DNA of 64,000 bases, taken from Bryobacterales bacterium. Its GTDB lineage: Bacteria; Acidobacteriota; Terriglobia; Bryobacterales; UBA6623. Both the position numbers and the translations under genes were made by a program. Position 1 is the first letter of the stretch. The number at the start of each line of letters is the position of its first letter. Below the pieces are notes generated by a model, which saw only the letters and a program-made list of their open reading frames with translations, did not search any database and was not told the origin of the DNA. Where the stretch lies: positions 37,201 through 101,200 of the forward strand of contig CBDBIU010000002.1 in assembly GCA_965206025.1 (NCBI GenBank), given 5' to 3'. This document shows positions 12,267-63,998 of the stretch, piece by piece.

Positions 12267-12283
12267 CGGCTGTCGTCGGTGAA

Positions 12284-12475
12284 CTAGGCCGCATTTCTCA
12301 CCACGGCGGCCGTGGTGAGGCCGAAAGGCCCAGCGGCCACGCATCGTGGCAACGATTTATGCACATCACCCAGCGTACAGTATGCCGGCAAGCGGCGATG
12401 AATCGCGCCCCTACATCCCTGACGGCGGGCATGCGCTTTTGTTCCTACCGGCTCCTGGTGAGAAATGCGGCCCAG
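12284..12475. mobile_element. MITE family A (CTAG-flanked) containing a GTAG-type REP hairpin
   Basis: CTAG-GCCGCATTTCTCACCA ... TGGTGAGAAATGCGGC-CCAG; internal GCGATGAATCGCGCCCCTAC. Confidence 0.75.
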
Positions 12476-19391: not shown

Positions 19392-19503
19392 CTAACCTGC
19401 ATTTCTCACCACTGTCACAGTGATTGGGGCGAAGGGCCCGGTGGCCAGGGCTGGCGGGCCTTTCGCCTCATCCAACGCAGCCGGGGTGAGAAACGCGGGC
19501 AAA
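19392..19503. mobile_element. MITE family A, short variant
   Basis: CTAA-CCTGCATTTCTCACC ... GGTGAGAAACGCGGGC; the interior is unrelated to the 200-bp copies. Confidence 0.7.
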
Positions 19504-19513
19504 ACAAGCTTGC

Positions 19514-19636
19514 CGCTCGTGGCGGGGACTGTTTCACCAATTTCGCGCCTTCAAAGGATCAACAACTTATGGGCGCATTCGGACGCGAAATTGGCTGACT
19601 GCACCCAGCCACCACGCAGCTTCTCCTTTTTGCACC
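19514..19636. repeat. Palindromic repeat with central IHF-like site (family C, copy 2)
   Basis: Reverse-complement homolog of 6213-6329; GATCAACAACTTA at 19557-19569. Confidence 0.8.
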
Positions 19637-19645
19637 TAAGAATAG

Positions 19646-21912
19646 CTAGTGTCCAGGGCGTGCGTGCTCTTCGATCCAGCCGGCGATCGCTTCAAGCGCG
19701 GCGGGGGCGATGGTTTCGGTGATCTTCGAGTATTCCGCCGGGAGACCGGTTCGGCTGGTCTGGAGTAGATGGTTCAACTCAGGCAGCTCCACCAACTTGT
19801 AGTCCTTGTTGCCCGCGGCCTTGAGCGCTTCCTCGATGGGCGGCATGTTCTCATCAGGCGGTACCTGAAGATCGCGTTCCCCGGTTACGACGAGCACAGG
19901 GCATTTGACTTGGCGCAGCGGCGGCGCGGGGTCGAAAGTCAGGAAATGGCGGAACCAAGGCGTCAGCAGCATCTTCGACTGCGTTCTTAGCGCCTCCTCA
20001 CCAGGGTAGCCGCGAGCCCGTTTCTCACTATCTGTGAGTCCGGAGAAGTGCTCTTGCTGGATCTCCAGGAGCTTCCCCGCGGCCGTATCGTTGTTCTTCT
20101 CCGCTTTCACCACGGCGAACAGTCGCTCCTGCATAGCGCGGTTCCGGCGAATCAGATCGTCCCCCACGCCCATGGCCCGCATCATGGCCGCGGACTGTAG
20201 ATAGAGCAGCTCTTCCCCTAGGACTCCGGGGGCGGCCACGAGCACGATGAACGCTACGTCTTCGGACATGGCGGCGGCCAGGCGCGCGACGATCGCACCT
20301 TCGCTGTGCCCTAGGATCCCGATCCGAGCCGGGTCGATTTCGTCGCGGCCGGTCAGGAATTCAACCCCGGCTAGCGCATCGGTTGCAAAGTCTTCCATGG
20401 TGGACTCAAAAACGGCTCTTCTGGGATTTTAGTGGCTGGCGGCGGTGAGTGACGGATCCCTCGCCACTGTGAGGCCGACCTCCCGGAGCCTGCTTCGGTG
20501 CCATTCAAGGGCTTCGTGACAACTCTACGGCCCCCAAGGCCGGGCGGCGACTGCGTTGGCCAAAAAGAATTACTGATAAACAAAGGGTTACGAGTAGAGC
20601 AAGGCTGCTGGCAGGTAGTCGTACAGTCTCCCGAAGGCTGTGAAATGCGGATCCACAACTGTCATCCAGTGGCCACACTCAAAGAGATAACTCCCTGTTT
20701 ATCAGTATCTTATTCCCTTTACGAGTTGCCCACGACCGGACTGGCGTGTAGGGTATTTGGGGATTTCTTGGCCGCCTTTTGGGCTCCGATGTGACTGCGG
20801 GCGACGTCGGGTCGGCAGGATGGAGGAGCCGGCTACCCGTTGGCCACCCACTAAAAACCCGGAAGAGCCTCAAAAACATTGCCGGTCGAGCCTCCTACAC
20901 CGCGGTCGTCAACCCGGAGTACGGCGATGCCGCGGCGTGTGAGGTAGTCGGCTAAGACCAAAAACGGGCGATGACCCATCAGGGTCTCATTGCGGTCCTG
21001 CGGACCTGACCCCGAGACAAGCAGAACCGCCGGTGCCCGATGTTTGGATCTAGGCAGCGTCAACGTCCCGGCGAACTTCACCACGGCTTGGTCGTTCATA
21101 AACGAGACTTCGACTTCGTCATAGGGATAAGGCCGGTTCGGATCTTGGGGACGAGCAAGATCAGGGACTTCTTCCTGGCGTTTGATGACCAAAGGCAGTA
21201 CGCCGCTGCCCTGTCGCCACTCGCCGCTGATCTGGGAACCGTCCTCGCTGATCGTGCCCTCGAATTCGGCTATAGGCTCCTTTAGCTTGAGCCGAACGGA
21301 ATCCCCATCGACCCGGATACTGCTGATCTTCAACCCCGCCGCGCCTTGATCGATGCTATCGATTGTTCCGCTCAGAGTGCCGTCCCCGGACTTTGAAATT
21401 CTGAAGAGCACCCGCAGGTTTAGGGCGCCGGTATTAAGCACCCCGAGCCAGATGCCTTCCAAACCTTCGCCGGGCATACCGGCGGGGATGACGACCCCAG
21501 CCGGCTCGGCGGGAACGTCGGGGCTCTCCCCGCTGCGATTGAGCACGAAGGGGAAATGGGCGCTTCCCTGGGTGAAATCACCGGAGATGTTCTCTCCCTT
21601 GTTCGACAACCTGCCGTTAAAAGACGGGTTGCCGGGGACGCCCTGCATCGAGAATGAAACCCGCGGACCGTCAATTTCGACGTTCGACAGGCGAAAATCC
21701 TTCACCCCTTGGCCTGGAATGTCGAGTTCTCCCCGCCATTCGCCTCCGTCCCCGTGAACAAGATCAACGACGATCTTCAGGGCTTGGCCGGGTGTCTCAA
21801 TCCGCCCCTGCCAGCGGCCTTGCGGGGTCGCTTCCTGCTGAGCCGAGGCCAGGCCCGTGCTCAAGAGAGCAGACAGCAGAAAAGCCGCCGCAATGGTGAC
21901 AAGTTTCCTCAT
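19646..21912 (-). pseudogene. Secreted alpha/beta hydrolase (S15/S33-like), interrupted by the 456-bp element
   Basis: N part has a signal peptide, SGSGPQDRNE and DDRGVGGS; C part has GHSEG and LNHL. Removing the insert and one TSD gives a 600-aa ORF reading GNVFE-STMEDF. Confidence 0.92.
20414..20869. mobile_element. 456-bp non-autonomous element with ISL3-type ends, copy 1
   Basis: TIRs GGCTCTTCTGGGATTTTAGTGG / CCACTAAAAACCCGGAAGAGCC; 8-bp TSD TCAAAAAC (20406-20413, 20870-20877). Confidence 0.95.
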
Positions 21913-21927
21913 ACCGGTCTCCTTATC

Positions 21928-22019
21928 GAGGCTCGCGAAATACAGTTATTTGGGAACATGGGCACAGCATGCTGTGCCCCTACAGTCTCAACACGGACGA
22001 TGCATAATTGGCGAGACTC
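21928..22019. repeat. Family D repeat (imperfect IR enclosing a GTAG-type REP)
   Basis: GAGGCTCGCGAAAT ... GGGCACAGCATGCTGTGCCCCTACAGTCT ... ATTGGCGAGACTC; homologs at 50669 and 53066. Confidence 0.85.
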
Positions 22020-22044
22020 AGTAAGCTTGGCCCGTTCCCCGCGC

Positions 22045-24890: not shown

Positions 24891-25321
24891 TCCGTCACGT
24901 GAATCTCAACCGCCGGAAACCCGCGCCGCCCTCACGTCGCCAGAAGGGTCAAATTGAACTCATAGAGCCGCGTCGTCGGACGAGTCAAAGAACTCCTCTC
25001 GGCTCTGCTGCGGACGACTAAGGCGGCGTAGCAGCAAGCGTCCTCTCGCGCCCGGCCATCCCACTCCGAACGCCTCCGCTGACCGACCATATTGGGCGAG
25101 GCCATCGAACAACAAGGGTAGCGGAAGGCGCGAAAAAAATCGACATCGGAGGAACGAGCCACTGCCTGCCGGCCCGCAGGGACACCCTCACCGCCATGTT
25201 GTGCACGGACTTGCCCGTGGCCTCGCGGCCGCGGCTTCCCTCAGAAGGACCGCCGTCCATCCCTTCAGGCAACAGGAGATTTTCGATCACCCTTATGGAT
25301 AAGCCTTCGGAGCAAAGCTCA

Positions 25322-25520
25322 CTAGCCTGCATTTCTTGCCACCTGACGGTCGAAGCACGCTATAGGCCACCATCACTGGGTTGCGCTTGCTCGCCGTGCT
25401 CAACGTACTGTTTAAGTAAGCCCGCGTGGTTCAAGAAAACCGGGCGCCGAGCGGCCCGCGGCTTGTACTGACGGCCTCTCACGGACCTCGCCTCGCCACG
25501 TGGTGAGAAATGCAGGCTGG
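25322..25520. mobile_element. MITE family A, full length (~200 bp)
   Basis: CTAG-CCTGCATTTCTTGCCAC ... GTGGTGAGAAATGCAGG-CTGG; colinear with the reverse complement of 57328-57527. Confidence 0.85.
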
Positions 25521-30162: not shown

Positions 30163-31461
30163 GGCTCTTCCGGGTTTTAAGTGGGCGAAGGAGCCAGATC
30201 GAGTTTCCCACAGTGGAAGTAGATGGCGTTGATGAAGTTCTGTTGATTGCGGAAACCGCGCGCCGTGGCCTTGACCCATTGAATCCTTGAGTTCAACCCC
30301 TCGCTGACCGCGTTCGTAATGCGGTGTTTCAGATACGTGAGTATGTTTTCGAGGCGAGCCGTCAACATCCGCGCTACGGTGACCATCGGCGTCAGCCGGC
30401 TGCGACTCGCCCAGCCGCGCCATTGCTCGAAGAAAGCTCGCGCCGCCGATTCGCGACGATAGTCGAACAGCCGCATCGCCGTTTCCTTCAACGCCCACGC
30501 CCGCGCCGTTTTCAAGTCGCTTTCGCGCAGCGCGCGGAACTCGCGCCAGGCGTCCTCGGAAAAGTTCGCCGGATGCCGCAGCCAAGCGTACTTCGTGCCT
30601 GTCAAACGTTCGTCGCCGAGGGCCAGTAAACGCTTGTTCTCCGCCCGCCGCACTTGGTCCACCGCCTTCGCCAGATGCGCCGCGATGTGATATTTGTCGT
30701 AAACGATCTTTTTCTCCGATTCGTCGAGATGCTCCCGGGTCGAGGCGACGTAAGGATCCCACATGTCCATCGCGACGGCCTCGACTCGGGCGAGTTGCTC
30801 TGCGCTCAACGTCTTCCAAAAGCCGTCCAGGCTGGCCTGGCGGCGTCCCTCGGCGACGAACAACACGCGCGAGCGGTTGAGATCGTTGACGACGGTGAGA
30901 TAGCGATGGCGCTTGCGGAAGCTCTTCTCGTCGACGCCCAGGTAGGGAATCGGCTCTGCCGCGCGACGTTCGAGCCCACGTTGCACGGCGCGTTCCAGGA
31001 TGCCGTGAATCTCGTCCCAGCTCAGCGCCAGCAACTCGGCGATGCCTTGCTGGCTGGCTTCCTTCAGCCACGAGATCGCGAGAGCTTCAAACAGCGCGGT
31101 GAAGCGGCTGGAAGCCTCGGCCCAGGGCAGTCGCACGACGCGCGGCCCGTGCTCGGAGCAGTCGCTGCGCGGCGGCCGGGCGTGCAGGATCGTGCGGTAC
31201 TGACAGGTGTCGAGGTGACGCCAGCGGCGTTCGGGCTGATGATCGTGGAGTGCGCACACGGCGCTGCATTGGCGGCACGGCCAGCGGACTTGCTCGTCGT
31301 GTTCGAGGAAGATGTGGACTTCGCCGTCGGCTCGGCGCAGCTCCACTCGCGCGACTTTCCAGGGACTTTCGATGCCCAGAATCTGGCGGTATAGCTCGCG
31401 GTCTTGCATCCCGCGAGACTACCACCGAGCCACACTCGCCCACTAGAAACCCGGAAGAACC
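30163..31461 (-). mobile_element. ISL3 family insertion sequence (1299 bp)
   Basis: TIRs GGCTCTTCCGGGTTTTAAGTGGGCGA / TCGCCCACTAGAAACCCGGAAGAACC; flanks ACTTCTTC and ACCTCTTC (7/8 TSD). Confidence 0.95.
30177..31409 (-). CDS. ISL3 family transposase, apparently intact
   Basis: Zinc finger CRQC...HLD...C.EHG; GVDE, MDM, DKYH and EGLNSRI...ARGFRN motifs. Confidence 0.95.
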   Translation of the reverse strand: MQDRELYRQILGIESPWKVARVELRRADGEVHIFLEHDEQVRWPCRQCSAVCALHDHQPERRWRHLDTCQYRTILHARPPRSDCSEHGPRVVRLPWAEASSRFTALFEALAISWLKEASQQGIAELLALSWDEIHGILERAVQRGLERRAAEPIPYLGVDEKSFRKRHRYLTVVNDLNRSRVLFVAEGRRQASLDGFWKTLSAEQLARVEAVAMDMWDPYVASTREHLDESEKKIVYDKYHIAAHLAKAVDQVRRAENKRLLALGDERLTGTKYAWLRHPANFSEDAWREFRALRESDLKTARAWALKETAMRLFDYRRESAARAFFEQWRGWASRSRLTPMVTVARMLTARLENILTYLKHRITNAVSEGLNSRIQWVKATARGFRNQQNFINAIYFHCGKLDLAPSPT

Positions 31462-33028: not shown

Positions 33029-34694
33029 CCCGCATTTTCAATTTGATGTTTGACATCCCGACCTTCCAGCGGCCTTGAGCGTCTTTATTCATAGGGGCTA
33101 GAGCCCGATGAGGACGCCATGGAGGCCAACACCCAATGGGTGAAAAACAAACCAAGCCATTCCAGCTAAGTTTCAACGGCTTGTTGAAAGTCGATTTCCA
33201 GGGATCGCACGTCACTTCTGATGGTGGCCTGATTTTGGTTCGCGAACTGGACGAACGGCTCGGTCTCGGAGAACTGATTGACGAGCATCTCAGCGACTCC
33301 CGGCAAGGCACAAACAAGCAGTTCACGCTCGCTGATCTGTTGCGGCAGTCGGTCTACAGCCGCTTGGCGGGCTACGAGGACCTCAACGACGCCGAGCGGG
33401 TTTCGATCGATCCGACGTTTCGGCTGATCGGTTCGCAGAAGATCTGGGATCGCGGTGCGGCCTTGACCTCGACGCTGCACGGCTTCGAGACGGAGATGCT
33501 GGCGAGCGAAGAGAATCTACTGGGGCTGATGGCGCTGAACCGAGAGCTGGTCGGGCAAGCGGAGGCGTTCGACGACTCCGAGCGGGTCGTTCTGGACATG
33601 GACTCCACCGAGAGTCCGGTCCATGGCCAACAGGAAGGCAGTGCCTACAACGGACACTTCGAGTCGGTCTGCTACCATCCGTTGCTTTTGTTCAACGGTC
33701 ATGGTGATTGCCTCGCTGCAAAGCTGCGTCCAGGCAACGTGCACAGCGCCGACGACTGGGATGAGCTATTGTTGCCGGAGATCGAGCGCCAACAGGCTGC
33801 GGGCAAGCAGGTCGCCTTCCGGGGCGATGCGGCCTTTGCCAAGCCGGAGGTTTATGAGGCTTCGGAGGAACGCGGAGTACAGTACGCCATTCGCATTCCG
33901 GCCAACAAGAGCCTGGAGTTGGAGATCGAGGACATCCTGTTTCGGCCACCGGGCAGGCCGAGCGCCAAGCCCCTGGTGCGCTACAAGAGCTTCCGCTATC
34001 AGGCCGCCAGTTGGAGCAAACCGCGGCGCATCGTAGCGAAGGTTGAGCACCACCCGGGCGAACTGTTCGCGCAACCCGGCTTCATCGTCACCAACATGAC
34101 CCGGCCCAGTCGCTCGGTGGTGCGCTTTTACAACAAGCGCGGCACGGCCGAGCAGTGGATCAAGGAAGGCAAGCAGGCCACGAATTGGACACGGTTGTCG
34201 TGCCATCGTTTTCGCGCGAACGAAGTTCGCTTGCAACTCAGCGTCCTGGCTTACAACCTCGGCAACCTGTGGCGGCGGCTGGGACTGCCACCAAGCATCA
34301 AGAGCTGGTCGCTGACGAGCTTGCAGCAGCGGCTGATGAAGACCGGCGGGCGGCTGGTCAAGCATGCCCGTTACTACTGGTTGCTGCTGGCCGAGGGGCA
34401 TCTGAACCGGCGGCTGTTCGGTGACATGCTGCACAGGATCTGGGCGCTGCCGCTGCCGAGCGGGTAGCGTTGACCGGGCTAGGATCAACAGTTTTCGGCT
34501 CCAAAAAGGTTTGGCAGGGAGCAGTGTCGGCCGCAGCGCCGTTCAGGCCGCGCAATCAACGTCTGTGAGCGGACGGACGAGCCCTGGCGCCTACCGGCGG
34601 AGGGGATGTGCAGGGTTCAGCGCGAAAAGACGTGGCATTCGGGCCGGCGCGGATGTATACTGTGGCCGTGCCAAGGCCAAAACGGAAATCCTGG
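33029..34694 (+). mobile_element. IS1380 family insertion sequence (1666 bp)
   Basis: Imperfect TIRs CCCGCATTTTCAATTTG / CAAAACGGAAATCCTGG; ATGAGA duplicated at 33023-33028 and 34695-34700. Confidence 0.93.
33136..34467 (+). CDS. IS1380 family transposase
   Basis: TSDGGL, GYEDLND, LDMDST, RGDAAF and YNKRGTAEQWIKEGK motifs. Confidence 0.95.
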   Translation: MGEKQTKPFQLSFNGLLKVDFQGSHVTSDGGLILVRELDERLGLGELIDEHLSDSRQGTNKQFTLADLLRQSVYSRLAGYEDLNDAERVSIDPTFRLIGSQKIWDRGAALTSTLHGFETEMLASEENLLGLMALNRELVGQAEAFDDSERVVLDMDSTESPVHGQQEGSAYNGHFESVCYHPLLLFNGHGDCLAAKLRPGNVHSADDWDELLLPEIERQQAAGKQVAFRGDAAFAKPEVYEASEERGVQYAIRIPANKSLELEIEDILFRPPGRPSAKPLVRYKSFRYQAASWSKPRRIVAKVEHHPGELFAQPGFIVTNMTRPSRSVVRFYNKRGTAEQWIKEGKQATNWTRLSCHRFRANEVRLQLSVLAYNLGNLWRRLGLPPSIKSWSLTSLQQRLMKTGGRLVKHARYYWLLLAEGHLNRRLFGDMLHRIWALPLPSG

Positions 34695-37260: not shown

Positions 37261-37920
37261 TGTCCCGCCTCAGCTGGAAATGGAGAGAGCGTTCCGCCGT
37301 TAAGCTAACGGAGGGGACGCATGAAAAAAGCACGGAAGCAGTACACAGCCGAAGAGAAGGTCGCCATCCTGAGGCGGCATCTGGTGGAGAAGGAGCCGGT
37401 TTCCGAAGCTCTGCGACGAGCTGGCGCTGCAGCCGACGGTTTTCTATCGCTGGCAGAAGGAGTTCTTTGAGAACGGAGCCGCCGCCTTCCAGACCAAGAA
37501 CCGCGGCAATCGTCAGCCCGAACAGGAACGCATCGCGCGACTGGAAAAGAAGATCCAGACCAAGGATGAGGTTCTGGCCGAGTTGATGGCCGAGCACATG
37601 GCGTTAAAAAAAGCCTTGGGGATGTCTAATCGCAATCCGGACGCCGCCCGACGTGCGCGACCAGATCGTCGATTTTGTCCGGTACTGGTCCGAGAAGACC
37701 GCGATCCGCGCCGGGCGCTTCATCGCGTGGCTGGGCATCACGCCCAGTAAATTCTACTCCTGGCGCCAGCGCTACGGCTGTGTCAATGAGCACAACGGGT
37801 GGGTGCCCCCGAGATTTCTGGCTCCGAAGAGTGGGAGAAGCAAGCGATTGTCGACTTTTATCGCCAGCATCCGCTGGAAGGCTACCAGCGGCTGACGTTC
37901 ATGATGCTCGACAGCGACAC
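37261..37920 (+). mobile_element. IS3 family remnant (left end, frameshifted orfA, truncated orfB)
   Basis: Starts TGTCCC. MKKARKQYTAEEKVAILRRHL...QPTVFYRWQKEFFE; orfB VRDQIVDFVRYW...GYQRLTFMMLD, then lost. About three +1 frameshifts. Confidence 0.85.
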
Positions 37921-40870: not shown

Positions 40871-41009
40871 CTAGCGCGCATTCCTCGCCAGCAGCCGTCA
40901 GGGAATGGAAGCAAAAGCGGGCTAGTGTAGTGCCACTAGCCCGCTTTTCTCACCACCTGAGGGTCGAAGCACGCAATAAGCCCGCCATGACTGCGTTGCG
41001 CTTGCTCGC
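40871..41009. mobile_element. Two MITE family A pieces (40871-40925 mini copy; 40936-41009 half copy) around an IS630-like terminus
   Basis: CTAG-CGCGCATTCCTCGCC...AAAAGCGGG-CTAG, then TGTAGTGCCA, then CTAG-CCCGCTTTTCTCACCACCTGA matching 57328-57527. Confidence 0.75.
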
Positions 41010-41150
41010 TTTCAGGTACTCGTGGCTGGCGATCTCGAGTTCGGGAACACTGCTGAACACGCCGCGACGGATGCGCTTCCGTGTCAGCTCGCGGAACCAG
41101 CGCTCGACGAGATTGAGCCAAGAAGAAGACGTGGGAATGCAGTGAAGCAA
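41010..41150 (-). pseudogene. IS630 family transposase C-terminal fragment
   Basis: PTSSSWLNLVERWFRELTRKRIRRGVFSSVPEL. Confidence 0.85.
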
Positions 41151-41297: not shown

Positions 41298-44200
41298 ATG
41301 AAGTACCCGCTGGCTGCGCCGCTGGCGGCCCTGGTAGCGGGAATCATCGCGGCGCAATTCGCACCTTTTTCGCTCCGGGAAACGCTGCTTTCCATTCTGT
41401 TGCTCGCCGGGTTGAGTGCGCTCGGGCTGCGCTACGGCGCCACTCGTGCGGCGGTCGTCGCTTGTCTCACCGGATTCGTGTTGACCGGGGCCATGCTGGC
41501 GTCGCGGTCCGACCCGCCGGACCCCTTTTTGATCACTGCGGTTCTCAAACGCGAGAGCGCTCGCCTCGAAGACCCTATCCGGCTCCGCGGTTACGTGCGC
41601 GTCCCCCCCGAGGTCATTGAGAACGCGGATCGATTTGTCCTGGAAGCCGAGTCGATCTTTCGTAACACCGTCGCCCACGGTGGCATTCGCGTCACCGTGT
41701 ACCGCCGGGAGAACGCTCCTCCTCTGAAGCTCGACTACGGCCAACGTATCGAGTTTCTGGCGCGAATTCGTAAGCTCCGCAATTTCGAAAACCCCGGCAG
41801 CTTCGATCGGATCGCATATCTCCATCGCCAGGGTATTCATTTGACGGCCACGGTGCGCGCCGGCACGCCCATCCTTCCTCTGGAGGGGGCCGGCGGAAAC
41901 GTGGGGCAGTCGTGGCTTTGGAGGCTTCGCGGGGCGGCGCAGCGAAGACTGGATGCGCTGTTTCCCCGGGAGCAGCCGGAAGATTCCGCCGGCAACGCCG
42001 TGCTGCGAGCTCTATTGCTCGGGGACCGGACTTCACTCGACCGGGAAACGACCACCGCATTTCAGCGCACCGGGACCTATCACGCTCTCGTGATTTCGGG
42101 TCTGCATATCGGTGTCGTGGCCTTTCTGCTGATGCTAGCTCTGCGAGTGGCCAGCGCTCCTCGGCTGTTCCGTGCTCTGATGGCGCTGGCTTTGGTGGCT
42201 ACCTACGCCTCCCTTGTCGGAGCACGCCTCCCGGTGCTCCGCGCAACGTCGATGTTCGCGGTCTTCTTGGCGGCCGGCCTCCTTTACCGACGACGCCGGG
42301 CGTTCAACGTGATCGCCGGCACGGCGTTATGCTTCCTCATAGTCGACCCAGATTTGCTCCTCGACGTCGGATTCCAGATGTCTTTTCTTTCGGTGGGTCT
42401 CATCGCCGCGGTCGCCCTTCCCGTGCTCGAGACGACGTTGGCACCCTACCGGCTGGCGCTTAGGGATATTGGCAACAAGGATCGCGACCTTCACCTGGAC
42501 CCCCGCGTCGCGCAGCACCGGGTAGGGTTGCGGCTGTATCTTGAACCGCTCGCGTCGCTCGTTCCCTTACCCGAACGGGATCTCTCTTTCGTCGTCTGCG
42601 GCCTGTTGCGCGTGCTGGTCTGGGCGGCGGAACTCTCCGTGGTGACGCTGGTCATACAGGCCGGCCTCGCCCTCCCCATGGCTGTTCATTTTCAGCGCGT
42701 GTCGTGGGGCGCCCTCTCGGCCAACCTGGCCGTCTTGCCGTTGCTGCTGGTCGCTGTGCCGGCGGGATTGCTGGCCATGCTAACCGGCTCGTCGTGGATG
42801 GCCGCCCTAGCGGCCTGGGCTGCCCAAGGGATGGCCGCGGTGGTTGATTGGCACGCTCACAACCTCGGCTGGGACGTGCGCGTGCCGCCGCCCCCGGCCT
42901 GGCTCGGGGTCCTGTTCGCCGCTTCGCTCGTCTTCCTAGCGCTCACGTTCCATCGTCGGCGCCGGTGGCGGATTGTAGCTGCCGGGATGACGATCTTCCT
43001 GCTGGCCTTGATCGTGGTTCATCCGTTTCCGCCCACCTACATGCCGGGACATTTGGAGCTGACGGCCCTTGACGTAGGACAAGGTGAGTCTTTATTTCTG
43101 GCTCTTCTGGGATTTTAGTGGCTGGCGGCGGTGAGTGACGGATCCCTCGCCACTGTGAGGCCGACCTCCCGGAGCCTGCTTCGGTGCCATTCAAGGGCTT
43201 CGTGACAACTCTACGGCCCCCAAGGCCGGGCGGCGACTGCGTTGGCCAAAAAGAATTACTGATAAACAAAGGGTTACGAGTAGAGCAAGGTTGCTGGCAG
43301 GTAGTCGTACAGTCTCCCGAAGGCTGTGAAATGCAGATCCACAACTGTCATCCAGTGGCCACACTCAAAGAGATAACTCCCTGTTTATCAGTGTCTTATT
43401 CCCTTTACGAGTTGCCCACGACCGGACTGGCGTGTAGGGTATTTGGGGATTTCTTGGCCGCCTTTTGGGCTCCGATGTGACTGCGGGCGACGTCGGGTCG
43501 GCAGGATGGAGGAGCCGGCTACCCGTTGGCCACCCACTAAAAACCCGGAAGAGCCTTATTTCTGGCGCTCCCCGACGGGCGCTCCATGATTGTGGACGGA
43601 GGTGGATTCCCGGAGTTTCCGGGCTTCCCGCCTCCTGCGATCGACATTGGCGAGTCCGTCGTCTCGCCTTACCTATGGTCACGCTCGATCAAGCGACTCG
43701 ATGTCGTCGCCGTCACGCATCCCGACGCCGATCACATGGGCGGTGTCCCCGCACTGCTGCGCAACTTCCGGGTAGGCGAGTTGTGGCTCGGAGCCGAGCC
43801 GGTCTTTGATGAGTACCGAACGCTGACGGAGCTGGCCAAGGGTCGTGGCGTCGAGATTGTCCGCCTGCGGCGGGGAGATGTTCGCTCTTTCGGTAACGTG
43901 CGATTCGAGGTTTTGGGGCCGGTTTCCCCGGGAAACGACGGCTGGTCCCGCAACGATCGGGCGCTGGTCCTTCAGACCACTTACGGAGGGCACAGATTTC
44001 TGTTGACGGGCGACATCGAGAGAAAAGGTGAGGATGGCCTACTAGGAAACGATCTTCTGCGGCACGGCGACGTCCTCAAGATTGCTCACCACGGGAGCCG
44101 AACTTCCTCGCATCAGGCGTTCCTGGACCATGTTCGGCCCACATTCGCACTCATCTCGGCGGGCCGGGCCAACTTCTACGGCCATCCACATCCGGAGGTG

Positions 44201-44347
44201 ATACGGCGGTTGGCGCGGCAGCGGGTCGCCGTCCTGCGCACTGACCTCGAGGGGGCCGTATCCATCTCGAGCGACGGGCGCCGCCTTTCCGTCACAAGCT
44301 ACCGCCGGCAGAGGCTGGTCAGGCGGCTCTCGCCTGGCCCAAACTGA
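41298..44347 (+). pseudogene. comEC: ComEC/Rec2 DNA uptake channel, interrupted by the 456-bp element
   Basis: NPGSFD, GTYHALVISGLHI, GFQMSF, LDVGQGES; after the insert THPDADHMGG, LLTGDIE, LKIAHHGS, YGHPH. Excision gives 861 aa reading GESLFL-ALPDG. Confidence 0.95.
43100..43555. mobile_element. 456-bp non-autonomous element with ISL3-type ends, copy 2
   Basis: Differs from copy 1 at 3 positions; 8-bp TSD TTATTTCT (43092-43099, 43556-43563). Confidence 0.95.
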
Positions 44348-45615: not shown

Positions 45616-45732
45616 TGTCCCGGTTCAACTGGAAATGGAGAGAGCGTTCCGCCGTTAAGCTAACGGAGGGGACGCATGAAAAAAGCTCGGAAGCACTACA
45701 CAGCCGAAGAGAAGGTCGCCATCTTGAGGCGG
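45616..45732 (+). mobile_element. IS3 family left-end fragment
   Basis: Near-identical to 37261-37377 (TGTCCC...ATGAAAAAAGC...GTCGCCATC.TGAGGCGG). Confidence 0.88.
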
Positions 45733-47282: not shown

Positions 47283-47347
47283 CGGCGAGCAAATGCGACC
47301 GAGTTACGGCGGGCTTTGACCCTCAGGTGGTCAGAAATGCGGGCTAG
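47283..47347. mobile_element. MITE family A, decayed end
   Basis: ...TCAGGTGGTCAGAAATGCGGGCTAG matches the end of 57328-57527. Confidence 0.65.
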
Positions 47348-47522
47348 TGCTTGGTGGCATAAGTTAGCGATCGTTTTATCGAAGGCAATTACTGACCGCT
47401 CTCTCACGGTCGCGGCTCGGAAGGTTCTGTGAACAAATCACATCCGGGTTGGTTCGAGCACAGATTAAGTCGACAGCATTGGGACTAACCCGCAACCGGA
47501 GCGCCGTTCCCCCGCTGAAATC

Positions 47523-50668: not shown

Positions 50669-50766
50669 GAGGCTCGTAAAATACACGGTGGCTTTGGAAC
50701 AAGGGCACAGCATGCTGTGCCCCTACAGTCTGAACGCGGACGACGCCACAACAATTTGCGAGACTC
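50669..50766. repeat. Family D repeat
   Basis: GAGGCTCGTAAAAT...GGGCACAGCATGCTGTGCCCCTACAGTCT...ATTTGCGAGACTC. Confidence 0.85.
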
Positions 50767-50790
50767 GGTAATTCAAGGAGAATCCGTTCG

Positions 50791-53067: not shown

Positions 53068-53161
53068 GGCTGGCAAAATACGGTTACTTTGGAACACGGG
53101 CACAGCATGCTGTGCCCCTACAGTCTGAACACGGGCTATGCCGCTATAATTTGCGAGACTT
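53066..53161. repeat. Family D repeat
   Basis: Same layout as 50669-50766; overlaps the phosphomutase stop codon. Confidence 0.85.
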
Positions 53162-53177
53162 AGTAAAAGACATCCCA

Positions 53178-57294: not shown

Positions 57295-57323
57295 TTGACC
57301 ACCCCTCCGGGCGCGCCTATACT
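57295..57323 (+). promoter_or_regulatory. Putative sigma70 promoter of dnaE-accA
   Basis: TTGACC (57295-57300), 17-bp spacer, TATACT (57318-57323). Confidence 0.7.
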
Positions 57324-57327
57324 GATA

Positions 57328-57527
57328 CTAGCCCGCTTTTCTCACCACGTGGCGAGGCGAAGTGCGTGAGAAGCCCGTCAGTACAAGGCGCGCGCCGCTC
57401 GGCGCCGCATTTCTTGAATAATGCGGGCGTACTTGAACAGCACGTTGAGCACGGCGAGCAAGCGGAACGCAGTAATGGCGGGCTTATTGCGTGCTTCGAC
57501 CGTCAGGTGGTGAGAAAGGCGGGCTAA
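57328..57527. mobile_element. MITE family A, full length (200 bp)
   Basis: CTAG-CCCGCTTTTCTCACCAC ... GTGGTGAGAAAGGCGGG-CTAA. Confidence 0.88.
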
Positions 57528-62146: not shown

Positions 62147-63889
62147 ATGAAAACTTCCGCCCAGGCATCGATTCTCGTTTTCCTGACGGTGGTTTGCCTT
62201 GCGGGTCAGGGGGTCGTCTCGCGCGGCGTCAAACCCGTGCCCCGGGGCGAGCCGTCGGGTCTCCCGTTCCACGCCAAGTTTACTGATGTCGCCGCCGAGG
62301 CGGGGCTGCGCATGCCGGTCATCTACGGCGGGGTGGATTACAACGACTACATCTTGGAGACGGTGGGCTCGGGCGCGGCGTTCTTCGACTACGATAACGA
62401 CGGCTGGATCGACATTTTTCTCCCCTCGGGAACGCGCCGCAAGAACGCCCCCGAGGGGGCTATCAACCGGCTCTATCAAAACAAGCGCGACGGCACGTTC
62501 CGCGACGTGACCGCGAGTTCGGGCTTGGGGCGTTCCGGGTGGGCCTCGTCGGTCACCGTCGGCGACTACGACGACGACGGGGACGAGGATCTCTTCGTCA
62601 CCAATTGGGGAAAGAACGCCCTTTACCGCAATGAAGGCCAAGGCAAGTTCAGCGAGGTGACCGAAGATGCCGGCCTACTGCACGAAGGTACACGCTGGGG
62701 GGCGGGGAGCACCTTCATCGACTACGACCGGGACGGCCACCTCGACCTGTTTGTCGCCAACTATCTGGAGTTCGACTTCGAAACGACGCCGGGCAAGGGA
62801 ACAGGTGTAACCTGCCGTTGGAAAGGAGTGCCCGTAAACTGCGGGCCCCGCGGGCTGCCGACCGCGCGGCAGTATCTCTACCGCAACCAGGGGGACGGTA
62901 CGTTCCGCGACGTCAGTGAGTCGTCCGGCATTGCCCAAGCGCCCGAGGGATACGCCATGACCGCGGTGGCGGCCGATTTCGACGGCGATCGCTGGACGGA
63001 TATTTACGTGGCCTGCGACAGCACGGCCAGCCTTTTTTTCCGAAACAACCGCGACGGCACATTTGCCGAGGAGGGGTTGGAGCGGGGCGCGGCGCTTAGT
63101 GATGACGGCATGGAACAGGCGGGGATGGGCGTCGGCGTCGGGGACTACGACCTCGACGGGGACCTCGACATCTTTAAAACCCACTTTGCCGACGACACGA
63201 ATGTCCTCTACCGCAATGACGGCGACGGCAATTTCTCGGATGTAACCGTCCAGGCGGGTCTGGGCGTCGAAACGCGATTCGTAGGCTGGGGCGCCGCCAT
63301 CGTGGATCTCGACAACAACGGCCTTCCCGACCTTTTCTACGTGACCGGAAGCGTCTATCCGGAGGTCGAAAAGGAACTGCCGCACTACCCCTACCACACG
63401 CCTCGCGTGATCTTCCGCAACCTGGGGGAAGGCAAATTCGAGGAGCTGATCGGAGAGGCCGGTCCCGGCATCGATGCCGCTCACACCAGCCGCGGCGCTG
63501 CGTTCGGCGACTATGATAACGACGGTGATATCGACGTGCTCATCGTAAACTTGAACCAACCTCCGTCCCTGCTGCGAAACGATCTCGACACCGATGATCA
63601 CTGGCTGAAAGTCAAATTGATCGGCGTCGCCTCGAATCGCAGCGCGATCGGGGCGTCGGTGAAGATTCGCTATGCCGACCGCCAACAGGTGCAAGCCGTC
63701 CTAGCCCAAGACAGTTTCTACTCCGTCAGCGACCGCCGGCTGCATTTCGGGTTGGGCGAGGTCGACAAAGCCGATCTCGAAGTTCGCTGGCCGAAAGGCT
63801 CCACGGAAACGTTCAAGCGTGTCGCGGTTAATCAGCTGGTTACCATTCGAGAAGGACAGGGAATAGTGAGTAGCGAAAAGATGCCGTGA
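62147..63889 (+). CDS. CRTAC1 family protein (FG-GAP/VCBS repeats + ASPIC/UnbV domain)
   Basis: Repeated DYDNDG..D motifs; C-terminal SNRSAIGA...LHFGLG...VRWP; signal peptide. Confidence 0.93.
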   Translation: MKTSAQASILVFLTVVCLAGQGVVSRGVKPVPRGEPSGLPFHAKFTDVAAEAGLRMPVIYGGVDYNDYILETVGSGAAFFDYDNDGWIDIFLPSGTRRKNAPEGAINRLYQNKRDGTFRDVTASSGLGRSGWASSVTVGDYDDDGDEDLFVTNWGKNALYRNEGQGKFSEVTEDAGLLHEGTRWGAGSTFIDYDRDGHLDLFVANYLEFDFETTPGKGTGVTCRWKGVPVNCGPRGLPTARQYLYRNQGDGTFRDVSESSGIAQAPEGYAMTAVAADFDGDRWTDIYVACDSTASLFFRNNRDGTFAEEGLERGAALSDDGMEQAGMGVGVGDYDLDGDLDIFKTHFADDTNVLYRNDGDGNFSDVTVQAGLGVETRFVGWGAAIVDLDNNGLPDLFYVTGSVYPEVEKELPHYPYHTPRVIFRNLGEGKFEELIGEAGPGIDAAHTSRGAAFGDYDNDGDIDVLIVNLNQPPSLLRNDLDTDDHWLKVKLIGVASNRSAIGASVKIRYADRQQVQAVLAQDSFYSVSDRRLHFGLGEVDKADLEVRWPKGSTETFKRVAVNQLVTIREGQGIVSSEKMP

Positions 63890-63909: not shown

Positions 63910-63998
63910 CCAGGATTTCCATTTTGGCCCTGGCACGGTGAAAGTATACACCCGCGCTGCCCCGCATACCACGTCTTTTCGCGCTGAACCCTGCACAT
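63910..63998 (-). mobile_element. Right end of a second IS1380-related element, running off the window
   Basis: CCAGGATTTCCATTTTGGCC...CCACGTCTTTTCGCGCTGAACCCTGCACAT is a diverged reverse complement of 34606-34694. Confidence 0.85.

What the first reader, a model, noticed from the sequence alone, without database searches (positions are those of the whole stretch)
20414..20869. 456-bp ISL3-ended mobile element whose whole length folds into a strand-specific rod
Seen: two copies (20414-20869, 43100-43555) differ at 3 positions, each has its own perfect 8-bp TSD, and there is no transposase homology inside. Beyond the TIRs, nested complementary pairs run to the centre: GCCGACCT 20474/GGGTCGGC 20809, GCCTGC 20488/GCGGGC 20797, TCGGTGCC 20495/GGCTCCGA 20782, TCGTGACAACTC 20514/GAGTTGCCCACGA 20723, TACTGATAAACA 20571/TGTTTATCAGTA 20696, GGCTGCTGG 20603/CCAGTGGCC 20666, GGTAGT 20614/ACTGTC 20658, apical ACAGTCT-cccga-AGGCTGT 20623-20641. 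Many imperfections are G.U on the + strand and would be A.C mismatches on the other strand. Two of the three inter-copy changes (C20605T, A20707G) turn Watson-Crick pairs into U.G and keep the fold. Known: MITEs are often structured, but they are usually shorter. Inference: a structured RNA or ssDNA under selection that uses ISL3 transposase for spread; its function is unknown.
Basis: partly seen in the sequence, partly recalled or inferred. Interest (0 to 1): 0.82.

Follow-up and report, generated by a model that had tools for sequence, protein, structure and literature searches.

The report
High-copy ISL3-type miniature transposon (MITE)
This is a 456-base non-coding miniature transposon that has very recently copied itself 186 times through the genome of an acidobacterium by borrowing the enzyme of a resident ISL3 insertion sequence, and its hairpin shape is a two-strand DNA palindrome typical of such elements, with no sign of a selected RNA.

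Summary
The two copies, their 3 differences and their 8-bp target duplications are real. The genome holds 186 full-length copies, 99-100% identical for 183 of them; 158 of 186 have perfect 8-bp duplications. Both window sites are precisely empty in same-genus genomes, and both copies split genes.

A 1299-bp ISL3 insertion sequence is the likely helper. It has 25 copies, one at window 30163-31461, with near-identical ends and the same AT-rich 8-bp target.

The interior arm-to-arm complementarity is non-random (z about 5) but equal on both strands. With the terminal repeats held fixed, folding energy matches shuffles: z -1.1 (+) and -0.9 (-). The + strand advantage is mostly G+T composition.

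- An 85%-identical copy in another genus keeps 13 changed pairs and breaks 22, with one compensatory change.
- Within-genome variants split 10 kept, 10 broken on either strand.
- Rfam gives no match.
- The right arm matches the 3' end of a different, decayed ISL3 element.

Verdict: a new, very successful member of a known kind. A selected strand-specific RNA is not supported. The scan had not met this sequence on other DNA.

The parts
20414..20869 (+). MITE copy 1 (456 bp). It differs from the family consensus only at element position 294.
20406..20413 (.). Target-site duplication of copy 1, left copy (TCAAAAAC). The right copy is at 20870-20877.
   Evidence: The site is present once and uninterrupted in 5 of 5 same-genus genomes.
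20414..20440 (+). Left terminal inverted repeat. Its partner is at 20843-20869 (27 nt, 89% complementary).
   Evidence: The roughly 23 terminal bases match the ends of the resident ISL3 IS.
20697..20839 (+). Right arm, element positions 284-426. It is homologous to the non-coding 3' end of a different ISL3 element.
   Evidence: 81% identity (92% for the G015 MITE copy) to the sequence starting a few bases after the stop codon of a decayed ISL3 transposase gene in G015 (L067/L069).
20571..20590 (.). Inner inverted repeat, left arm. Its partner is at 20688-20707 (20 nt, 85% complementary, with a perfect 12-bp core).
   Evidence: It is conserved in the G015 copy. The right copy opens the IS-derived arm.
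43100..43555 (+). MITE copy 2 (456 bp), with TTATTTCT duplicated at 43092-43099 and 43556-43563.
   Evidence: A single-junction empty site is seen in 4 of 5 same-genus genomes; in the fifth (G022) the MITE is also absent but about 1.1 kb of other DNA lies near the site.
30163..31461 (-). Resident 1299-bp ISL3 insertion sequence, the likely helper. The transposase gene is at 30177-31409 (410 aa).
   Evidence: Pfam DDE_Tnp_ISL3, HTH_Tnp_ISL3 and Zn_ribbon_ISL3. There are 25 full-length copies at 99.9-100%, and 17 of 25 have a perfect 8-bp duplication.
20851..21912 (-). N-terminal 353 codons of an alpha/beta-hydrolase-type gene cut by copy 1. The reading frame now ends inside the MITE.
   Evidence: The orthologous frame is 614 aa and uninterrupted in G022 (L115:742-2586).
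41298..44347 (+). ComEC-like competence gene split by copy 2 into a 606-aa piece (41298-43118) and a 253-aa piece (43586-44347).
   Evidence: The frame is 861 aa and intact in G017 (L120:696-3281). Competence and DUF4131 lie in the first piece and Lactamase_B in the second.

Best explanation
The element is a selfish, non-autonomous ISL3-type MITE, and the two parts of this reading carry different weight.

Mobility. It has no gene of its own. It is cut and pasted, or copied, by an ISL3 transposase supplied in trans. In this genome that is most likely the transposase of the 1299-bp ISL3 IS, which recognises near-identical roughly 23-bp ends and makes the same 8-bp duplication at AT-rich sites. 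The element entered this lineage recently and burst to 186 near-identical copies (about 85 kb, 1.5% of the genome), often landing inside genes.

Hairpin shape. This is a Watson-Crick DNA palindrome, imperfect and present on both strands alike. It most likely comes from how the element was built: the right arm is the 3' non-coding end of another ISL3 element, and the left arm is an old inverted counterpart or symmetric binding-site region. It does not appear to be a selected, strand-specific RNA.

Shown: the copies, duplications, empty sites, matching ends, arm homology, and the lack of covariation or strand bias.

Inferred: which transposase moves it, and how the palindrome arose. My confidence in that last sub-claim is only about 0.5.
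For: Copies and mobility:
- 186 of 199 blastn matches are full length. Of these, 183 are 98.7-100% identical and 169 are exactly 456 bp.
- 158 of 186 have a perfect 8-bp duplication, and orientation is 93 + to 93 -.
- Duplicated targets are 71.6% A+T in a 61% G+C genome.
- Both window sites are empty in same-genus genomes.

Helper IS:
- The ISL3 Pfam domains are present.
- There are 25 full-length copies; 17 of 25 have perfect 8-bp duplications, which are 68.5% A+T.
- Its ends match the MITE right end at 22 of 23 bases and the left end at 19 of 22.
- Of 434 end-like sites in the genome, 371 lie in MITEs, 51 in this IS and 12 elsewhere. The 12 are MITE fragments, two copies of a 406-bp derivative, and one further site (C4:684601) where one search shows an 81% match to the IS end.
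- The closest match in this genome to the decayed G015 ISL3 transposase is 43% identical.

Fold:
- With the ends fixed, z is -1.12 on + and -0.94 on -.
- Complementarity z is 4.98 (Watson-Crick only), 5.33 (+) and 6.28 (-).
- DNA-parameter z is -3.68 on + and -3.32 on -.

No covariation:
- Against the 85% copy, of 158 pairs 118 are unchanged, 13 kept (1 compensatory), 22 broken and 5 gapped. On the - strand 11 are kept and 18 broken.
- Substitutions fall at 44 of 316 paired against 25 of 140 unpaired positions; Fisher p is 0.32.
- Of 20 within-genome variants at paired sites, 10 keep and 10 break the pair on either strand.

Origin: right-arm homology to an ISL3 3' end.

Known kind: a MITE is defined as under 500 bp with TIRs, direct repeats, AT-rich targets and stable stem-loops (PMC10969869, section 2.1 and passages). 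An ISL3-mobilised 187-nt MITE with GGCTCTTCG ends and 8-nt repeats is in print (PMC11448079, passages).
Against: - The interior palindrome is real and specific. A 406-bp ISL3 deletion derivative in the same genome has none (z -0.88).
- Mismatches between the arms are saturated: 26 transitions against 46 transversions. A simple decayed inverted duplication would therefore have to be very old, which leaves room for a constraint on complementarity.
- The 85% copy folds better than its shuffles even with its ends fixed: z -2.35 on + and -3.19 on -.
- There is a weak excess of G.U-type over A.C-type mismatches on the + strand, 18 to 8, with p 0.076.
- Only one diverged full-length homologue was found, so the covariation test has little power.
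- The resident transposase is only 36% identical to the one whose 3' end the right arm resembles, so cross-mobilisation is inferred from the ends alone.
- An intact parent IS was not found.
- The element occurs in contigs of RNA libraries from 4 studies, so transcription is possible. Contigs cannot show it.
Confidence: 0.85

Rival explanations
1. The whole-length foldback is a selected DNA-level part of the transposon. Single-stranded or cruciform pairing of the arms, or symmetric subterminal binding sites, brings the two ends together and raises the efficiency of trans-mobilisation. That would explain why the MITE (186 copies) outnumbers its helper (25 copies).
For: - Complementarity is non-random on both strands and in both the outer and inner interior.
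- It is absent from a 406-bp ISL3 deletion derivative that has only 2 copies.
- It is retained at the same score (125) in the 85% copy.
- Arm mismatches are saturated, which argues against a recent duplication.
- Earlier scan notes report other rod-shaped ISL3-type MITEs. These are leads only and were not tested here.
Against: - Changes between the two lineages break more pairs than they keep (22 to 13), with one compensatory change.
- Paired positions are not more conserved than unpaired ones, with p 0.32.
- Folding energy is not better than shuffles once the ends are fixed.
- MITEs outnumbering their helpers is common without any such explanation (recalled).
Confidence: 0.1
2. This is the first reader's reading: a strand-specific structured RNA (or ssDNA) under selection that merely uses ISL3 ends for spread. 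It might be, for example, a long dsRNA-like rod processed by RNase III or acting on neighbouring genes.
For: - The + strand minimum-free-energy fold is 17 kcal/mol more stable and more rod-like (118 of 158 pairs collinear, against 72 of 145 on -).
- G.U-type mismatches outnumber A.C-type 18 to 8 on +.
- The element is present in contigs of RNA libraries.
Against: - The strand difference is mostly composition; z with the ends fixed is -1.12 against -0.94.
- In the 85% copy the - strand is the better and more rod-like one.
- Covariation is absent.
- Rfam gives no match at E up to 1.
- No promoter-like site was found in or around the element, and the one terminator-like hit lies outside it at 20963-20980.
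- Copies sit in both orientations equally (93 to 93), and both window copies lie inside disrupted genes.
- The right arm is recycled IS end sequence.
Confidence: 0.04
3. The copies are not a mobile element but an assembly or binning artefact, or a dispersed repeat spread by recombination.
For: The genome is a metagenome-type assembly of 5 contigs. 28 of 186 copies lack a perfect duplication.
Against: - 158 different perfect 8-bp duplications.
- Precise empty sites in independent genomes.
- The same element sits in other flanks in independent public runs.
Confidence: 0.01

Closest known systems
187-nt MITE of Microcystis aeruginosa PCC 7806, attributed to ISL3-family transposases (PMC11448079; passages read)
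   Same: - Non-coding element whose inverted ends begin GGCTCTTC.
- 8-nt direct repeats.
- Matching ends on resident ISL3 elements.
- Predicted stem-loop.
- Inserts into genes.
   Different: - 456 against 187 nt.
- Acidobacteriota host, not a cyanobacterium.
- 186 near-identical copies here.
- I could not compare the interior sequences because that sequence was not in hand.
- Here one arm derives from a different ISL3 lineage than the resident helper.
Prokaryotic MITEs, type I and type II, as defined in PMC10969869 (section 2.1 and passages read)
   Same: - Under 500 bp, with TIRs and target duplications.
- AT-rich targets.
- Thermodynamically stable stem-loop.
- Mobilised in trans by an IS.
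- Relative to the resident IS it is type II, because similarity is confined to the ends.
   Different: - It lies at the upper end of the size range and is G+C-rich (58%) where MITEs are typically A+T-rich.
- Relative to the decayed G015 ISL3 element its right arm is type I-like, so the element is a mosaic.
Whole-length hairpin MITEs such as Correia/NEMIS of Neisseria and ERIC of enterobacteria (recalled, not checked in a call beyond mentions in PMC10969869)
   Same: High-copy, palindromic over most of their length. When read through, they fold in transcripts of either orientation.
   Different: - Those are 100-160 bp and belong to other or unknown IS families.
- Processing of their transcripts is documented (recalled). 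Nothing of that kind is shown here.
ISL3 family insertion sequences (Pfam PF01610, PF13542, PF14690)
   Same: The helper at 30163-31461 has all three domains, inverted ends and 8-bp duplications.
   Different: The MITE itself has no transposase remnant.

Membership tests
MITE (non-autonomous IS derivative) | Short (under 500 bp) and non-coding | tested here: met
   The element is 456 bp. Pfam finds 0 families for 4 of the 11 internal ORFs listed. There is no significant tblastn hit to ISL3 transposases. Indels in the 85% copy break the longest ORF.
MITE (non-autonomous IS derivative) | Terminal inverted repeats and target-site duplication | tested here: met
   The ends are 27 nt and 89% complementary. 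158 of 186 copies have a perfect 8-bp duplication.
MITE (non-autonomous IS derivative) | Many copies, with presence/absence polymorphism | tested here: met
   186 full-length copies. The site of copy 1 is precisely empty in 5 of 5 same-genus genomes and that of copy 2 in 4 of 5; in the fifth (G022) the MITE is also absent but other DNA lies near the site.
ISL3-mobilised element | Ends and duplication length match a resident intact ISL3 IS | tested here: met
   The ends match at 22 of 23 and 19 of 22 bases. The IS has the ISL3 domains and 8-bp duplications in 17 of 25 copies. No other intact IS with such ends is in the genome.
ISL3-mobilised element | Shown to be moved by that transposase | not testable with these tools
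   This needs a transposition assay. A same-genus genome with at least 40 copies of the same IS has no MITE. That fits recent arrival of the MITE but proves nothing about mobilisation.
Structured non-coding RNA under selection | Folds better than shuffled controls beyond the parts explained otherwise | tested here: not met
   With the 23-nt ends fixed, z is -1.12 (+) and -0.94 (-). For the interior alone, z is -0.64 and -0.20 (100 shuffles each).
Structured non-coding RNA under selection | Compensatory covariation among diverged copies | tested here: not met
   13 pairs kept (1 compensatory) against 22 broken. Within-genome variants split 10 to 10. Power is low, with one diverged homologue.
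Structured non-coding RNA under selection | Strand specificity conserved in relatives | tested here: not met
   Complementarity z is 5.33 (+) and 6.28 (-). The favoured strand switches in the G015 copy.
Structured non-coding RNA under selection | Discrete transcript | tested here: inconclusive
   The element is in contigs of 4 RNA libraries from 4 studies, with other flanks. Contigs show neither strand nor ends, and DNA carry-over is possible.
Rfam families | Match to a curated covariance model | tested here: not met
   0 matches at E up to 1 in window 19000-45000.

The most novel reading that the evidence does not exclude
The 400-bp interior foldback is not a relic. It is a selected device that makes this MITE an exceptionally good substrate for a foreign ISL3 transposase, by pairing of the arms in single-stranded or cruciform DNA or by symmetric subterminal sites. 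If so, whole-length hairpin architecture would be a general, convergent adaptation of ISL3-type MITEs.
Probability: 0.1. Interest if true: 0.55.

Novelty: new member of a known kind. Interest (0 to 1): 0.25.

Why it matters
As a structured-RNA candidate it does not hold up, so it should not be carried forward as one.

As a mobile element it is a clean, very recent MITE burst. There are 186 copies, making up 1.5% of the genome, with gene knock-outs such as a ComEC-like competence gene. The host is an acidobacterium whose sequence turns up in runs labelled sponge metagenome, among others.

The element is a mosaic. Its ends fit one ISL3 element and one arm comes from another. Near-identical copies occur in three genera of the family, which points to recent horizontal spread.

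It is useful for annotation: these 186 loci and the genes they split should be flagged. It is also a natural test case for whether interior palindromy matters for MITE mobility.

Tried and rejected
- **More diverged copies for covariation.**
  - The family search (77 genomes) and order search (401 genomes, only the best 2 candidates scored per genome) gave one full-length diverged copy, in G015 at 85%. The rest were fragments.
It returned 4 loci with the element, all already seen, and 26 short chance matches.
  - Two metagenome scans found 0 matches.
- **Intact parent IS.** A protein search with the decayed G015 transposase piece in 77 family genomes found 2 decayed copies in G015 and two distant homologues (56% and 47%). 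None had MITE-like arms or ends nearby.
- **Solo right-end fragment.** The 52-bp fragments (three places) match the element's right end; the one I read (L103) is not attached to a transposase gene.
- **Interrupted copy.** One interrupted MITE copy turned out to carry an unrelated 1022-bp IS, not a parent.
- **Coding hypothesis.** Rejected.
- **Promoter or terminator cargo.** The scan found no promoter-like site, and its single terminator-like hit lies outside the element.
- **Gene context of all insertions.**
  - My open-frame test was too lax.
  - My GC3-based gene caller marks only 67% of 600 random positions as genic. Its figure of 64 of 158 insertion sites in genes is therefore rough.
  - When inside called genes, the + strand is co-oriented in 25 and opposed in 39, which I do not treat as significant.
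- **RNA evidence.** Only assembled contigs were available. They show presence in RNA libraries, not transcription, strand or ends. No cover of this locus's own flanks was seen.
- **Supplementary tables.** Those of PMC11448079 and of the bioRxiv MITE census were not opened, and they may list related ISL3 MITEs.
- **ISfinder.** It could not be queried.
Full report
**1. What is in the sequence**

The two copies at 20414-20869 and 43100-43555 are as described. Each is 456 bp. They differ at three positions (element positions 192, 236 and 294). Each is flanked by its own perfect 8-bp duplication, TCAAAAAC and TTATTTCT. The ends form a 27-nt inverted repeat that is 89% complementary.

The window lies in a 5.74-Mb, 61% G+C assembly of 5 contigs. 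An earlier scan note labels the genome as Bryobacterales, Acidobacteriota, and the titles of public records that hold the element agree.

**2. Copy number and mobility**

- blastn of the element against the whole genome gives 199 matches, of which 186 are full length. 22 are 100% identical, 161 are 98.7-99.8%, and 3 are 93.6-96.3%.
- 169 of the 186 are exactly 456 bp. 158 of 186 have a perfect 8-bp duplication. 93 lie on each strand.
- Variation is minimal. Only four variants are common: position 192 C/T in 12 copies, 236 G/A in 52, 294 G/A in 23, and a 1-base insertion after 170 in 12.
- Targets are A+T-rich, with duplications at 71.6% A+T.
- In same-genus genomes the two flanks of copy 1 abut with a single target copy in 5 of 5. 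The flanks of copy 2 do so in 4 of 5. The fifth genome also lacks the MITE but has about 1.1 kb of other DNA near the site.
- Both copies sit inside genes that are intact in relatives. One is a 614-aa alpha/beta-hydrolase-type frame. The other is an 861-aa ComEC-like competence gene, now split into a Competence/DUF4131 piece and a Lactamase_B piece.

Together this is a very recent burst of a mobile element.

**3. The helper**

The window itself holds a 1299-bp ISL3 insertion sequence at 30163-31461. Its 410-aa transposase carries DDE_Tnp_ISL3, HTH_Tnp_ISL3 and Zn_ribbon_ISL3.

- The genome has 25 full-length copies at 99.9-100%. 17 of 25 have perfect 8-bp duplications, which are 68.5% A+T.
- Its ends match the MITE's right end at 22 of 23 bases and the left end at 19 of 22. 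There is no similarity beyond the ends.
- Of 434 end-like sites in the genome, 371 are in MITE copies, 51 in this IS and 12 elsewhere. The 12 are MITE fragments, two copies of a 406-bp ISL3 deletion derivative, and one further site (C4:684601) where one search shows an 81% match to the IS end.
- No other intact IS with such ends is present.
- A same-genus genome carries at least 40 copies of the same IS and no MITE. The IS is therefore older in the genus, and the MITE is a newcomer that exploited it.

That this transposase moves the MITE is an inference from ends, duplication length and target preference.

**4. Where the interior comes from**

In another genus (G015), element positions 284-426 align with the sequence that begins a few bases after the stop codon of a decayed ISL3 transposase gene. 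That gene is frameshifted and interrupted by another IS. Identity is 81% to this element and 92% to G015's own MITE copy. Upstream of that point the IS has coding sequence, while the MITEs have something else.

That transposase is only 36% identical to the resident one. The closest match to it in this genome is 43%. The MITE is therefore a mosaic: one arm is recycled from one ISL3 lineage, and the ends fit another.

An intact parent was not found, so the origin of the left 283 bp is open.

**5. Is the rod real, and is it strand-specific?**

The tool's whole-element RNA folds give -199.2 kcal/mol (z -4.71) for + and -181.9 (z -3.49) for -. Two controls change the picture.

*Control 1: ends held fixed.* I kept the 23-nt ends, whose pairing is explained by transposase recognition, and shuffled only the interior (100 shuffles each).
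- z drops to -1.12 (+) and -0.94 (-). For the interior alone it is -0.64 and -0.20.
- The shuffle means themselves differ by about 17 kcal/mol between strands, because the + strand is G+T-richer (239 against 217). The + advantage is therefore composition.

*Control 2: direct test of collinear arm-to-arm complementarity of the interior.*
- The result is positive: z 4.98 with Watson-Crick pairs only, and 0 of 60 shuffles reach the observed score.
- It is the same on both strands, 5.33 (+) and 6.28 (-).
- It holds for the outer interior (z 4.18) and the inner interior (z 3.51).
- It is absent from the 406-bp ISL3 deletion derivative (z -0.88).
- With DNA parameters the two strands fold alike, z -3.68 and -3.32.

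In an unbiased arm alignment there are 140 matches, 18 G.U-type and 8 A.C-type transitions on +, 46 transversions and 32 gap columns. The 18:8 split has p 0.076.

In the G015 copy the strand preference reverses: z -2.35 (+) against -3.19 (-), with rod-like pairs 73 of 160 on + against 108 of 151 on -.

**6. Covariation**

Only one diverged full-length copy exists in the genomes I could reach: 85% identity, 69 differing positions.

- On the + strand fold, of 158 pairs 118 are unchanged, 12 are kept by a one-sided change, 1 by a compensatory change, 22 are broken and 5 are gapped. On the - strand fold 11 are kept and 18 broken.
- Paired positions are not more conserved than unpaired ones (44 of 316 against 25 of 140), with p 0.32.
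- Among the 186 copies, 20 variant sites fall on paired positions. 10 keep and 10 break the pair, on either strand.
Each has an even chance of giving G.U on a given strand. At position 294 the majority state is G.
- Rfam has no match at E up to 1.

**7. Other points**

- The longest internal ORFs have no Pfam match and are broken by indels in the G015 copy.
- No transposase remnant is detectable.
- The consensus scan finds no promoter-like site, and its one terminator-like hit lies outside the element.
- Near-identical copies (98.6-100%) occur in three other genomes, which lie in two other genera of the family. Of these, G012 shows no match to the resident IS at E 1e-20, and G044 and G008 show only fragments of it. 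This points to recent horizontal spread.
- Public runs that hold the element include runs labelled sponge metagenome and 8 RNA libraries. Contigs of 4 RNA libraries from 4 studies contain the whole element joined to other flanks.
- Contigs cannot show transcription, strand or ends, so expression remains open.

**8. Comparison with what is known**

The element meets every sequence-level criterion of a prokaryotic MITE as given in PMC10969869: under 500 bp, TIRs, direct repeats, AT-rich targets, stable stem-loop, mobilised in trans (section 2.1 and passages).

An ISL3-mobilised MITE with GGCTCTTCG ends, 8-nt repeats and a stem-loop is already in print for Microcystis (PMC11448079, passages).

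My two literature searches found no description of this element or of ISL3 MITEs in Acidobacteriota.

Earlier notes of this scan mention rod-shaped ISL3-type MITEs in other phyla and an IS1380-type MITE family in this same genome. The scan had not met this sequence before.

**9. Verdict**

The element, its mobility and its palindromy are real. Strand specificity and 'fold-preserving' variation are not.
ISL3-dependent spread holds. A selected structured RNA does not.
- It is a new, unusually large and unusually successful member of a known kind.
- The one open question of some interest is whether the interior palindrome helps transposition. A scrambled-interior transposition assay would settle it.

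Noticed in passing
window 19499-19649 (also 12276-12339, 19392-19447, 25314-25520, 40928-41010, 47304-47349, 57320-57526): A second short repeat family of about 150-190 bp, whose ends contain CTAG...GCATTTCTCACCAC. It has many copies in this and all five same-genus genomes searched.
   Followed up: partly
G000 C5:401991-403012 and 22 other places (not in the window): A 1022-bp IS in 23 places, 22 of them at 99.8-100% identity and one at 91% (one of the 22 spans 997 bp). One copy is inserted in a MITE copy. Its first codons resemble an IS1595-type transposase seen in G015 (a resemblance I recall; not tested with Pfam).
   Followed up: partly
G000 C4:660428-660833 and C4:1219017-1219422 (not in the window): A 406-bp element in 2 copies, with ISL3-like ends and 70% identity to the 3' part of the resident IS. 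It is a classic deletion derivative and has no interior palindromy (z -0.88).
   Followed up: yes
G000 C3:257593-258891 and C3:723570-724868 (not in the window): Two copies of the 1299-bp IS sit at the same CCGGGTTT target inside the right end of a MITE copy. Either the composite was duplicated, or that site in the MITE end is a hot spot.
   Followed up: no
window 21937-22028, 50680-50771, 53075-53166: Three copies (65-100% identical) of a roughly 92-nt repeat built around the palindrome GGGCACAGCATGCTGTGCCC. It may be another small dispersed element or a shared regulatory or terminator hairpin.
   Followed up: no
window 34606-34694 / 63910-63998 and 37261-37377 / 45616-45732: An 89-nt inverted pair (89% complementary) and a 117-nt direct pair (95%), each far apart. 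They could be the ends or fragments of further mobile elements.
   Followed up: no
L041:1-1422 (G044) against G000: The DNA next to the single MITE copy in G044 matches a roughly 1.43-kb repeat at 89-92% identity. That repeat is present many times in G000 (150 non-MITE matches), so it is another high-copy IS shared across genera.
   Followed up: no
L045:1501-2100 (G013): An ISL3-type left end plus 111 bp homologous to the MITE's left arm. It is followed by unrelated sequence and a membrane-protein ORF. It could be a truncated copy or a cassette-carrying relative.
   Followed up: no
window 62471-63243: Five spaced copies of a 38-nt coding repeat. Its translation resembles the FG-GAP/VCBS type (a recalled resemblance, not tested).
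   Followed up: no
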